64,000 bases of DNA from Chrysomallon squamiferum. Its lineage: Eukaryota > Animalia > Mollusca. The stretch covers positions 5,146,001 through 5,210,000 of the forward strand of contig CM022665.1 of NCBI GenBank assembly GCA_012295275.1, read 5' to 3'. The position numbers were made by a program, and so were the translations under genes. The notes beneath the pieces were generated by a model. That model saw nothing but the letters and a program-made list of their open reading frames with translations, searched no databases and had not been told where the DNA came from. Each line of letters begins with the position of its first letter. Positions within the stretch are counted from its first letter, which is position 1. Below, one piece after another: positions 57,001-63,000 of the stretch.

Positions 57001-60000
57001 TTAAACTGTACACATCATAATGTTATTTCTGCTATAAAGTACAATTAGATGTATATTATTATTTTTCATAAATGTAACAGGCTGAATCTGACTTACTGTT
57101 GAAACAGCACTGACCAATCAGTTAGTTATCTGATCTAGTTATAAATATAACAGACACACAGTATACTTAGCATAACTTACGGTTGAAATAGCATTGACCA
57201 ATCCATTAGTTATCTGATCTTGTCTCATATGTCTAACTATATCAAACTGAGCTGCTCGTGGTTTTGGAATGGTCATGTCTGCAATCTTCTTCAGCTTAAA
57301 AAATAAAATAAAAAATATGCATACATGTAGCTATAAAAACAGGCATTAATGATTTAGATACTGAAAATGCTATTTTAAATGGCTTTTATGACTGTGATCT
57401 TCTGTTTATATGAAAGACAGTCATAATTATGCTAGTTTCTGAACCACCTGGTATTATGAATGCATTTTTTATAACAAATTTGTCATATTAAGGATGGTGT
57501 ATATGTAACTGTTCTAAATAACTAAAATACTTAATGACATGTATTAATGTGTCTCACTTTTATAAGATGAACTGAAAACAAAACAGGATCTTGAAATGCT
57601 AGTTTCTGGAACTTGACAAAGAAATTAAAAAAGCACCGAGTAATATCTTCTACCATGCATAACTAGCAGAGCTTTCTCTTTCACAGTTTGAATTTTACCT
57701 CAGAATTAAATTTCTTGAAGAGATCTTCAAACAACAAGGACAGTAACTGTCCTGCCAACTCCAGCCTCTTGTTGCCATAGTAATCACGGTCATCGAGATT
57801 AACCTTTTTGTTCTCAGTGAGAATAATGCGTCGAACCATTAGTGCAAGGTAAGTGGCTTTCTGTTTGAAATTCCAGTCGATCACCTGAAGAATTATTTTC
57901 ATAATGATTTAATTTTATATTCAGCATATGTTAGAAACACAATTCATATCCAATGATACAAATCTGATACACAATCATACATAAATATTAGAACCTGTTC
58001 AATTTTTTTTTTCTTTATTCTGTTTATTTGGAACATCGGTAAATGAAAGCATGCTGTAATACATGTTTATTTATATTTTTTTAACACTGTTTTTTTTTTT
58101 TTTAAATAACATATTTATTAAAATGTGGTAAAAATACACACACACACACACAGAGAAAGAAATAACAAAACCATGAAGGTACAACTTTCTGGAATCAAAT
58201 CATACACTATATGTTTAATTAATTTAGTAAAAATATTAATTAACTAGTTATGGTTAGTAAATTTTCCTCTCAGAAATCTGCTATGACTTACTGGAACATG
58301 AGCTAAAACAACATCATGTAAAACATCTCTGGCTTCATCAACCTTTGTCTTCTTTCCAGCCCACATATTCCTTGTTCTAATTTTGTTTCCAAGATATTTC
58401 AGAGCCTTAAGTATAAACAAAGTGTTTTCAAAGGATATCAGTTACAGCAATCTGCTGTAATGAAATAAAATTTGTAACTGCAGAAAGTACACACAATCTA
58501 TCTAAATTAGTTTGTAAGAAAATCTTCTTTAATGTTCATTATAAAACAATGGGTCCAGATTAAGTCAGTGTACAAGTATGACAAATTATGAACTGAATGA
58601 AGGCCAGCTGTATCATTTGGGTTATGATTAAAACATGTCTCTCAGTTATTACATTATTGTTTAAAAGCATTAGAATACTGGTTAAATAGTAAGATACTTG
58701 ATATTTTAAACAAATATGACAGTAGCTGTTACTTCCAAGATGGATTAAAATCAACATACTGAAGTAGAGGTTAGCACATGACTGGAAGTACTACAAATCG
58801 TAACTGACCAGCTTAAGATCTTTACCGTTACATAACTAATTTGTTTTACTGAAATTTGTCTCTCTACTTACTTGGTTCTGTGTGAACACCTGTGCTCTGT
58901 GACATTCTTCCAGGCAGGGCGCCATGGCTGCCAGTGTATCATCTTCACTGCCAATCATCTGCAGTATCTCCTGGTCACACTCAACTCCCATGCCTTTGAA
59001 TGCTATTGCCACTGGAATATCCTGTTAACATCACAAGTACACATATAATCACAGCTTTAATTAAATAAACTGATGATATTGCCACTGGAATATCCTGTTA
59101 ACATCACAAGTACACATATAATCACAGCTTTAATTAAATAAACTAATGATATTGCCACTGGAATATCCTGTTAACATCACAAGTACACACATAATCACCT
59201 TTAATTAAATAAACTAATGATATTGCCACTGGGATATCCTGTTAACATCACAAGTACACATATAATCACAGCTTTAATTAAATAAACTAATGATATTGCC
59301 ACTGGAATATCCTGTTAACATCACAAGTACACATATAATCACAGCTTTAATTAAATAAACTAATGATATTGCCACTGGAATATCCTGTTAACATCACAAG
59401 TACACATATAATCACAGCTTTAATTAAATAAACTAATGATATTGCCACTGGAATATCCTGTTAACATCACAAGTACACATATAATCACAGCTTTAATTAA
59501 ATAAACTAATGATATTGCCACTGGAATATCCTGTTAACATCACAAGTACACATATAATCACAGCTTTAATTAAATAAACTAATGATATTGCCACTGGAAT
59601 ATCCTGTTAACATCACAAGTACACATATAATCACAGCTTTAATTAAATAAACTAATGATATTGCCACTGGAATATCCTGTTAACATCACAAGTACACACA
59701 TAATCACCTTTAATTAAATAAACTAATGATATTGCCACTGGGATATCCTGTTAACATCACAAGTACACAGATAATCACAGCTTTAATTAAATAAACTAAT
59801 GATATTGCCACTGGGATATCCTGTTAACACAATACACATATAATCACAGCTTTAATTAAATAAACTAATGATATTGCCACTGGAATATCCTGTTAACATC
59901 ACAAGTACACATATAATCACAGCTTTAATTAAATAAACTAATGATATTGCCACTGGAATATCCTGTTAACATCACAAGTACACATATAATCACAGCTTTA

Positions 60001-63000
60001 ATTAAATAAACTAATGATATTGCCACTGGAATATCCTGTTAACATCACAAGTACACATATAATCACAGCTTTAATTAAATAAACTAATGATATTGCCACT
60101 GGAATATCCTGTTAACATCACAAGTACACACATAATCACCTTTAATTAAATAAACTAATGATATTGCCACTGGGATATCCTGTTAACATCACAAGTACAC
60201 AGATAATCACAGCTTTAATTAAATAAACTAATGATATTGCCACTGGAATATCCTGTTAACATCACAAGTACACATATAATCACAGCTTTAATTAAATAAA
60301 CTAATGATATTGCCACTGGAATATCCTGTTAACATCACAAGTACACATATAATCACAGCTTTAATTAAATAAACTAATGATATTGCCACTGGAATATCCT
60401 GTTAACATCACAAGTACACATATAATCACAGCTTTAATTAAATAAACTAATGATACTGCCACTGGGATATCCTGTTAACATCATAATTATAACTTTAATT
60501 ATAAATAATATATAGAATTTCACTGTGTTATACTAAGCAATGCTTATATTCAAGTCATTAGTGAACATTTTAAAATGCAAGAGATTTAATATTTTCATGT
60601 GACAAAAGAATGTATCACTAATTTTTCGAGTTGAAAGGAAAACAAACACTTGAAAAGAAGTAGTAGTAGTAGTAGTAATAATAATAATAATAATAACAGC
60701 ACTAGAACAACAACAAAACAAAACTACTACTACTACTACTACAACAACAAATAATAATACGAATCATATTTACTTCAGAAAATGTGTTATGCTTCAAATA
60801 GTATTTTCCATGTTTCACAGTGACGTATGTCTTACTTTTTCTCTCGTGTGTTGAACTAAAAATATAAAACACAGGATAATTGTATATTCTGAGATCTCAA
60901 CTTTTGAGACAGACTGGTTCATCAAAGGCTACTGCACATAAAGATCCCAATCAGCTAATGAATAAATGCAGTTTTCATTTCAATGTTAAAGTAAATCATC
61001 TTTAAAACAGTTTGCTTTAAACAAAATTAAATTTTCATTTGCAGATATCAGAATGAAAAAGAAAAAAAAACACATACTTGACACTAGTATGATAATATTA
61101 AAATCTGTTTAGCAAATATTTAATTCAGTTTTGTTCCAAGTTATTAGAATAAAAAAACCACACTCATTTATATATTTGATTCCATTATCTGTTAGCATTT
61201 AAAATCTATAGGTGTTGTTTAACAACTATTATTTAATTCAGTCACACTATCTGAAAGTTTCTCAAGCAATATCATTAACCTTGTCACAGAGCACTCAATA
61301 GTTCCCTTGCTGCCAACATCCACCATCATTCTGTTTTTAGACAACTGCTCCTGAATTAGAATCACTTTTTCCACACCCCTCACTATGAAGTAGCCTCCTG
61401 GGTCCATTGGGCATTCATTCAGTTTTGCCATCTCAGATGGACTTTTGTTATGGAGGACACATTTAGAGCTTCGAAGCATTATAGGCATTCTAGAAAAAAG
61501 AAAAAAAAGCATAATAACAATAGTAATAATAAAATACACAAAATGAAATAATGAAATAATTCTTTCAAGATTTTTAATACACTGTTAGAAATCAAAAATT
61601 AAATATTTAAAACTACAGATTTAAAAATATTAAGAAAAGGGAAAAATTAAAAATAAAAATAAAGAAAAGTAAAGAAAATTCAAGTTAAAAATACGTAGTA
61701 CAATGAAGGAAGAAAGAGTGTGTGTCATAATCAAATCAAATATGTCTTAAATATTTACTAGCTGAAGATATTTTCTGAGGGTAAATGTCAGTCATACATA
61801 CATAAGTGCCAGATACTGTTATATACTCCAGATAAGTTTAAAACAACTTGCAACAAGCATCAGATAATAAAAGCTTAGATAGAAGCTGTTTATAACACCT
61901 GAATTACACTATACCATCTTAAACAAAGTATAAAAAGAAGATATCAAATCACTTCTTTATTTTTGAAAATCACTTTAAGTAGAAGTTTTGAGTACAAGAA
62001 ATATGTATGAATGTGAAATGTGAACACTGTTGCAATTAAAGTAGTATCAAATATAACAACAAATTCTTTTATGGACATTTCAATTTTTTTTTAAAGTAGC
62101 CATACAAACCTGCCAATGGGCAAATTGTTTCTCATAATTCTTTGGTTTCCTCTGGTGTATTCTATGTCCACAGTGATAGGAGCTGAGTAGGTCATATCTC
62201 GTAGTCGACACTGTTAAGACGTAAGTTAAAATTAATATGACTTCTAGTGATGAAACAACATTAAATCTTCAAAATGATTTGATACTTTGACTCAGGAAAC
62301 ACAAAAACACTGATAATTAGTATTAGATAAAAAAATTAAGCATTTTTGCAGTTAGAAAAATAAAATTGTGGCAACCAAAATTTTAAAATTTATATTTATT
62401 TTCACTTTTTGTGATGTTTTGAATACTGAAAAAAAGGTGACAGCATCGGCAAAAGTAATAACCACTAATAACAAATATTAACTTGATTAATTCATAAATG
62501 TCAGTTTACTGCTACCATAAGAAATACCTCACAAATATTTAAAAATGACAAAATTGTGAAAAACAGCATTTTTTACAGTGTCTTATTCCATTTCTGATGA
62601 TCATTGCTATCTTCCATTTAAAAGCCTAAAAGTACTCCACCTAGACAACACCTGTAATTGTTTTGACAATGATCTTTGTATTCTGCTTGATTTCAGTTTC
62701 AGATATGATCAGTGCAGTACTGAGCTGAGTTTGTACTTGGCAGTTACATGATAGCTATAATTTATAAAGTAGTATGCAAATAAAATTATAACAATTTCAC
62801 ATCCAATGACATGTGGTCAGTGGTAGCAGTTGTTATACTGGAAAAATTGATGCTCCAGTGAACATTATTTTAGTTTAAAATACCATTCAAAAGGAAATTG
62901 AACAACTTTTGAATGAAACCAGAAATGTTGCATGTAAATTCATTGCAACTTAATGTAATTTAAGCTTAAAGCCAATTTTTCAAGAAAAACATGCTTATTT

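What the first reader, a model, noticed from the sequence alone, without database searches (positions are those of the whole stretch)
59004..60483. An essential gene's splice acceptor amplified into 20 decoy 3' splice sites, each leading to a premature stop
Seen: each 73-bp unit reads on the minus strand ...GTACTTGTGATGTTAACAG|GATATTCCAGTGGCAATA, the intron end plus the first 6 codons (DIPVAI) of the POLR3B exon at 59021. There are 21 copies; only the last continues into the real exon, so the spliceosome meets 20 near-identical acceptors first. Hand translation from the nearest decoy and from the 73-, 71- and 69-bp unit types hits a stop in every case (TAA/TAG in the array, or TGA about 35 nt into the frameshifted exon). 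Established: POLR3B is essential, and exon definition and NMD exist. Inference: correct splicing must rely on cross-exon definition from the GTAAGT donor at 58871, and copy number could tune productive versus NMD splicing, and so Pol III dosage. It could equally be a tolerated neutral expansion.
Basis: partly seen in the sequence, partly recalled or inferred. Interest (0 to 1): 0.8.

Follow-up and report, generated by a model that had tools for sequence, protein, structure and literature searches.

The report
Repeated splice acceptor in mollusc POLR3B
In a mollusc's RNA polymerase III gene, the end of one intron and the start of the next exon are repeated 21 times in a row, but none of the four assembled transcripts examined includes a repeat copy, so this is likely a harmless example of a repeat type already known from lancelets and humans ("mirage"), not a dosage switch.

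Summary
Observation confirmed. There are 21 acceptor copies at 60471..59021 (minus strand; units 73 bp x16, 71 x3, 69 x1) before an exon of an intact mollusc POLR3B, and read-through from each of the 20 decoys hits a stop. This is a 'mirage', a minisatellite spanning an intron/exon boundary, described in amphioxus (PMC3087553, PMC3902484) with human parallels (CBS 844ins68, F7). In 4 of 4 transcript-bearing runs the contig leaves the upstream donor and lays on no repeat unit. One contig's length fits the normally spliced mRNA ending at a poly(A) signal. Some decoys score above the real acceptor, but only the real one has a strong donor 150 nt on, so exon definition is the likely selector. The same gene has a second, decayed boundary duplication. 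Dosage tuning is unsupported; for F7, repeat number did not change site choice. Untested: rare decoy use, and the array in other individuals. The scan already found such arrays on other DNA, including an annelid case with about 21 copies and one elsewhere in this genome. New member of a known kind.

The parts
44962..63909 (-). POLR3B (RPC2) gene, the part in the window; 27 exons from 63596 to the stop at 44962 give one open frame of 1059 aa; the 5' end lies beyond the window
60774..60855 (-). upstream exon (82 nt, ends ...HNTFSE), donor GTAAAT at 60773
   Evidence: covered by contigs of 4 of 4 runs
59022..60773 (-). phase-0 intron, 1752 nt (302 nt before the first acceptor copy); longest of the 26 introns modelled
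   Evidence: intron position shared by 9 of 10 related loci
60472..60516 (-). diverged intron part of the 5'-most copy (lacks about 12 nt of the unit, several substitutions)
   Evidence: alignment
59022..60471 (-). 20 full repeat units (about 23 nt exon start + about 50 nt intron end), each beginning at a decoy AG|GATAT acceptor; variant order CAADBAAAEFBAAAAAABAG
58872..59021 (-). real exon, 150 nt, DIPVAI...FTQNQ, behind the 21st acceptor copy
58866..58871 (-). strong donor GTAAGT of the real exon, the likely exon-defining signal
   Evidence: score 9.8, above the 99th percentile (9.5) of 1173 GT sites in the gene
57091..57139 (-). second, decayed boundary duplication in the same gene: copy of the last 43 nt of exon 57294-57181 plus GTAAGT (43 of 49 nt identical); using its donor would add 84 nt with stops

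Best explanation
This is a 'mirage' minisatellite: a 73-base piece spanning an intron end and exon start of POLR3B is present in 21 tandem copies, and the spliceosome likely removes the whole array as ordinary intron by using only the last copy. Origin (inferred): one local tandem duplication across the acceptor, then expansion by slippage or unequal exchange, which homogenised inner units and left the edge copy to diverge. Selection of the last copy (inferred): acceptor strength cannot do it, because the decoys are identical or stronger. Only the last copy is followed by the rest of the exon and a strong donor 150 nt on; a decoy would define a 223-1600 nt exon filled with AT-rich repeat. Any leak to a decoy makes a premature stop more than 100 nt before the next junction, so NMD would clear it (inferred). 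The array is therefore close to neutral.
For: Anatomy matches amphioxus BflGb6 (3' end of intron plus 5' part of exon, repeated; boundary units left out of homogenisation), and mirages reportedly do not disturb splicing. RNA: in 4 of 4 runs laid (2 studies) one contig covers the upstream exon and runs on 104-2968 letters past the donor, with depth 0 over the intron and the first unit (60399-60740) and no joint to it. The X8 contig holds 2969 letters from the donor on; the modelled coding sequence from 59021 to the stop is 2712 nt, which puts its end at UTR base 257, inside an A-run 13 nt after an ATTAAA. Splice scores: real acceptor 3.2, most decoys 3.2, first copy 5.8, copy at 59820 8.2; real donor 9.8; best donor-like site in the array 5.5. 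Linked variants recur (the 71-bp type three times) and the edge copy is diverged. 2 of 52 boundaries of this gene carry a spanning duplicate above their null. 0 of 7 related loci scanned carry an acceptor-spanning array.
Against: Contigs drop rare isoforms, so a leak of some percent would be invisible. It is not known whether the sequenced animals carry the array. The splice matrices come from 25 sites of this one gene. Exon definition itself was not tested. A CBS donor-side VNTR is titled as associated with lower enzyme activity, and two pseudo-sites are used in CBS and 6-16 (passages), so such arrays are not always silent.
Confidence: 0.75

Rival explanations
1. The decoys are silenced mainly by RNA structure. 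Each decoy's pyrimidine tract pairs with the start of the following repeat's intron part, a pairing that the real exon sequence breaks, so only the last acceptor is open.
For: The predicted fold of a standard decoy is a hairpin centred on the acceptor with an 8-bp stem over the tract. Tract unpaired probability is about 0.25 in standard decoys, 0.38-0.56 at the real acceptor, and a median of about 0.5 at 25 other acceptors.
Against: The hairpin is not better than shuffles: z -1.09 (25 of 200 fold as well); other decoy types -0.70 and -0.64. Variant decoys reach 0.35-0.44, close to the real site, and other true acceptors go as low as 0.1.
Confidence: 0.12
2. The array is an assembly artefact, or its copy number is inflated or private to one individual.
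For: No DNA run was laid over the locus, no whole genome is held, and the junction 29-mer has 0 matches in metagenome contigs. 12 of 20 units are identical.
Against: Seven unit types with linked, recurring differences and a diverged edge copy are what repeat turnover gives, not what collapsed or duplicated reads give. Assemblers more often shrink such arrays (own knowledge).
Confidence: 0.07
3. One reading: decoy acceptors are used at a rate set by copy number, send part of the POLR3B transcript to NMD and so tune Pol III dosage under selection.
For: All 20 read-through products are NMD-type. The real acceptor is among the weakest of the gene (tied third lowest of 25) and some decoys score higher. 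Human donor-side VNTRs in CBS and 6-16 do use nearby pseudo-sites, and tandem repeats can shift splicing in humans (PMC10078293, passages).
Against: No decoy-containing contig in 4 of 4 runs. No array at this intron in 7 related loci scanned, though these are distant. A 73-bp unit shifts the frame and the intron part is AT-rich, so stops need no selection. F7 constructs with 1-12 repeats chose the same site. A second, decaying duplicate in the same gene points to a mutational tendency.
Confidence: 0.06

Closest known systems
Amphioxus 'mirage' minisatellites (globins BflGb6/BflGb9, Adh3, troponin C, PGBD5); PMC3087553 and PMC3902484, passages read
   Same: Tandem copies of an intron 3' end plus exon 5' start (BflGb6), AG signals kept, inner units homogenised and edge units divergent, both boundary types can be copied, normal mRNA reported.
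   Different: A mollusc, not a lancelet; 21 copies against 3-6 in BflGb6; 73-bp unit against 150-160 bp (Adh3 units 10-72 bp); host is a core polymerase subunit. Length instability was not tested here.
Human CBS 844ins68 (PMC2630376, passages read; the primary papers of Tsai 1996 and Romano 2002 seen only as reference titles)
   Same: A duplication of nearly the same size (68 bp) of an intron/exon junction; splicing strongly favours the distal copy and gives normal mRNA.
   Different: Two copies only. The G-run/hnRNP H mechanism (recalled, not read) has no counterpart, since this unit has no G-runs.
Human donor-side VNTRs: F7 IVS7 37-bp, CBS IVS13 (15-20 repeats), 6-16 (25 pseudo-sites), lamin B2, PDGF (PMC1557585, abstract and passages)
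   Same: Minisatellite reiterating a splice site 5-25 times; the copy next to the real exon is used; similar copy numbers.
   Different: Donor side. Some (CBS, 6-16) use one or two neighbouring pseudo-sites; that was not seen here, and contigs could miss it.

Membership tests
Mirage minisatellite (exon-intron boundary tandem repeat) | Head-to-tail repeats whose unit spans an authentic exon-intron boundary of the host gene | tested here: met
   Unit is about 23 nt exon start plus about 50 nt intron end; 21 acceptor copies
Mirage minisatellite (exon-intron boundary tandem repeat) | Copies keep splice signals that could act as cryptic sites | tested here: met
   All 21 keep AG|GATAT; the six copies scored are equal to or above the real site
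Mirage minisatellite (exon-intron boundary tandem repeat) | Concerted evolution of inner units, divergence of boundary units | tested here: met
   12 of 20 identical; recurring 71-bp type; diverged 5' copy; private variants in units 1 and 20
Mirage minisatellite (exon-intron boundary tandem repeat) | Regular mRNA is made despite the copies | tested here: met
   Indirect: 4 of 4 contigs lay on no unit; X8 length fits the normal mRNA. Dominant isoform only; array status of those animals unknown
Mirage minisatellite (exon-intron boundary tandem repeat) | Length polymorphism between alleles (or somatic instability) | not tested
   No DNA run was laid; no second haplotype found
Regulated unproductive splicing (AS-NMD, poison splicing) | Premature stop more than about 50 nt upstream of a junction in the alternative product (rule recalled) | tested here: met
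   109-1489 nt for 20 of 20 decoys
Regulated unproductive splicing (AS-NMD, poison splicing) | The unproductive isoform is made at a measurable, regulated level | tested here: inconclusive
   None in 4 of 4 contig sets; contigs drop rare and NMD-degraded forms
Regulated unproductive splicing (AS-NMD, poison splicing) | Conservation of the poison element across related species | tested here: inconclusive
   No array in 7 distant loci scanned (56-76% protein identity); no close relative available

The most novel reading that the evidence does not exclude
An acceptor-side VNTR in an essential polymerase gene whose copy number sets the fraction of transcripts lost to NMD, a heritable dial on Pol III output, with a repeat-encoded hairpin keeping the decoys mostly shut.
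Probability: 0.06. Interest if true: 0.7.

Novelty: new member of a known kind. Interest (0 to 1): 0.2.

Why it matters
Modestly. It extends mirages to a gastropod-like mollusc (no mollusc case in searches; the library lacks most subscription papers) and shows that an essential gene can carry 20 near-perfect decoy acceptors and stay intact. It is a clean natural substrate for testing exon definition against scanning at 3' splice sites, because identical acceptors differ only in what follows them and private variants mark some copies. Many equivalent arrays are already in this scan's notes, so the class is of more interest than this instance. It also warns annotators of false acceptors.

Tried and rejected
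Whole genome: none held, so no genome-wide count or paralog check. Exact junction 29-mer in metagenome contigs: 0 matches. Related loci: 10 found, 9 with the same intron position and 1 intronless; 7 of 10 were scanned for repeats, L008-L010 were left out as near copies of L006 and L007; L005 has a 37-bp intronic repeat that stops short of the AG. All are distant, so they do not date the array. Self-BLAST of the window was uninformative near the diagonal and was replaced by a boundary scan, whose exon list lacked one 18-nt exon and had a few edges off by 1-2 nt. Hairpin masking is not significant against shuffles and is kept only as a rival. Recursive splicing rejected: the copies read AG|GA, not AG|GT. 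In-frame micro-exon or intron-birth route considered: unit 1 has a private GT giving a 15-nt in-frame DIPVA piece, but its donor scores 1.6, below all 25 true donors (lowest 2.1); the 71-bp units have a 5.5 donor (40 nt, frameshift) and a 2.4 donor (63 nt, in frame); no RNA support. Read coverage of the real exon's side and of any DNA run was not obtained, so copy number in other animals and use of the decoy donor at 57096 stay open. The POLR3B literature search: none of the 15 listed of 42 papers mentions POLR3B.

Full report
Observation. On the minus strand the motif that ends the intron and begins the exon occurs 21 times, with exon starts from 60471 to 59021; the 20 full units are 73 bp (16), 71 bp (3) and 69 bp (1). 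TRF reports period 73, 20.5 copies and 97% matches. A 27-mer from the intron part matches 17 times in the window, all within the array, and never in 100 shuffles. The exon is POLR3B: it matches human RPC2 residues 233-282, and the best named relatives are Haliotis, Mytilus and Pomacea RPC2. The 27 exons from 63596 to the stop join into one open frame of 1059 aa, 89.9% identical to Haliotis cracherodii, so the host is a mollusc, probably a gastropod, and the gene is intact. The intron is phase 0 and 1752 nt long, the longest of 26 modelled, and would be 302 nt without the array. Read-through from each of the 20 decoys stops after 21-37 codons, 109-1489 nt before the next junction.

Is it real? 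The units fall into seven types in the order CAADBAAAEFBAAAAAABAG. The 71-bp type carries linked differences and recurs three times, and units 1 and 20 have private variants. The intron part of the 5'-most copy lacks about 12 nt and has several substitutions. This is the pattern of repeat turnover described for amphioxus mirages and argues against an assembly slip. It is not proven: no genome is held, the junction was not found in metagenome contigs, and no DNA run was laid over the locus.

Context. A scan of 52 exon boundaries of the gene for duplicates spanning the boundary found two above their null: this acceptor (score 101, null maximum 21) and the donor at 57181 (47, null maximum 19), a decayed 49-nt copy at 57091-57139 with an intact GTAAGT. 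Three other spanning rows lay below their null maxima. Ten related loci were fetched; nine have an intron at the same place, and none of the seven scanned has an acceptor-spanning repeat. They are distant (56-76% protein identity), so they show only that the array is not ancient and general.

RNA. Eleven runs were listed, nine holding part of the gene, from three studies. Four small runs were laid on 60399-61520, which holds two exons, the unique intron and the first unit. Two are on record as RNA; the other two skip the intron 60855-61280 at canonical ends, so they behave as RNA. In 4 of 4, one contig covers the upstream exon up to the donor and runs on for 104-2968 letters. Depth is 0 from 60399 to 60740, and no joint reaches the first unit, although a decoy-spliced contig would match its 73 nt at about 97%. 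The tool dropped four loose ends and no joints near a simple repeat, so the letters after the donor were not displayed. As an indirect check, the X8 contig has 2969 letters from the donor onward; the modelled coding sequence from 59021 through the stop is 2712 nt (one search gives 2713 with one base past the stop), which places its end at UTR base 257, in an A-run 13 nt after an ATTAAA. One decoy unit would move that end to base 184, and skipping the exon to base 407, neither near the three ATTAAA sites found. A contig can end anywhere, so this is supportive, not proof. Contigs hide rare and NMD-degraded isoforms, and the array status of those animals is unknown.

Mechanism. With matrices built from 25 sites of this gene, the real acceptor is weak (3.2, tied third lowest; pyrimidine fraction 0.50). 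Standard decoys score the same, the first copy 5.8 and the copy at 59820 8.2, so acceptor strength cannot pick the last copy. What differs lies downstream: the real exon ends 150 nt on in CAA|GTAAGT (9.8, with that site in the training set; the 99th percentile of 1173 GT sites is 9.5). GT sites within the five units scored range from -5.4 to 5.5, against 2.1-11.5 for true donors left out in turn. Cross-exon definition, with NMD clearing any leak, is the simplest account; both steps are inferred from established splicing biology, not shown here. A second possibility is structural: standard decoys fold into a hairpin over their pyrimidine tract (unpaired probability about 0.25, against 0.38-0.56 at the real site), but the fold is not better than shuffles (z -1.09, 25 of 200). 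Weak internal donors would on paper allow short in-frame pseudo-exons, the route to intron gain proposed for mirages; nothing in the RNA supports it.

Known relatives. PMC3087553 (passages) describes minisatellite-like duplications of the 3' end of an intron plus the 5' part of an exon in amphioxus globin BflGb6, names them mirages, and reports that they do not appear to interfere with splicing. PMC3902484 (one passage) says the same for Adh, troponin C and PGBD5. PMC2630376 (passages) describes CBS 844ins68, a 68-bp duplication of an intron/exon junction in which the distal site is strongly favoured and normal mRNA results. PMC1557585 (abstract and passages) lists donor-side cases with 5-25 copies, shows that F7 site choice did not change with 1-12 repeats, and notes that CBS and 6-16 use two pseudo-sites. 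PMC2812944 and PMC10078293 (passages) show that human tandem repeats can alter splicing in general. No supplements were read; BflGb6 alignments there might refine the comparison. Searches returned no mollusc case, and none of the 15 papers listed in one search mentions POLR3B; the library lacks most subscription papers. The scan's own notes (unchecked AI notes, consulted after I had reached this reading) list similar arrays in annelids, a sea urchin, a skate and an octopod, one of about 230 copies, and one elsewhere in this genome.

Verdict. The feature is real in the assembly and neatly described, but it is a new member of a known kind. Best explanation: a near-neutral mirage spliced past by exon definition (0.75). 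Rivals: structural masking (0.12), artefact or private allele (0.07), dosage tuning by NMD (0.06). Interest 0.2; if dosage tuning were shown, 0.7.

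Noticed in passing
window 57091-57139, minus: Decayed tandem copy of the end of POLR3B exon 57294-57181 with a perfect GTAAGT (43 of 49 nt identical; score 47 against null maximum 19); use would add 84 nt with two stops.
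   Followed up: partly
window 48704-48721, minus: An 18-nt micro-exon (GICPDI) of POLR3B, missed by tblastn, fills a gap in the protein.
   Followed up: partly
window about 7185-14765, minus: A multi-exon cytochrome P450 gene (PF00067 in 2 of 3 pieces scanned); its boundaries were not scanned for duplications.
   Followed up: partly
L005:2859-2994: A 37-bp intronic tandem repeat ends a few bases before the orthologous POLR3B acceptor in an unrelated animal locus; it does not span the junction.
   Followed up: no
L001:739-888: This relative has no intron on either side of the exon (transcript or intronless copy).
   Followed up: no
window 55421-55791: Weak 160-bp-spaced similarity (60%) just upstream of the acceptor at 55420; not above chance in the boundary scan.
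   Followed up: partly
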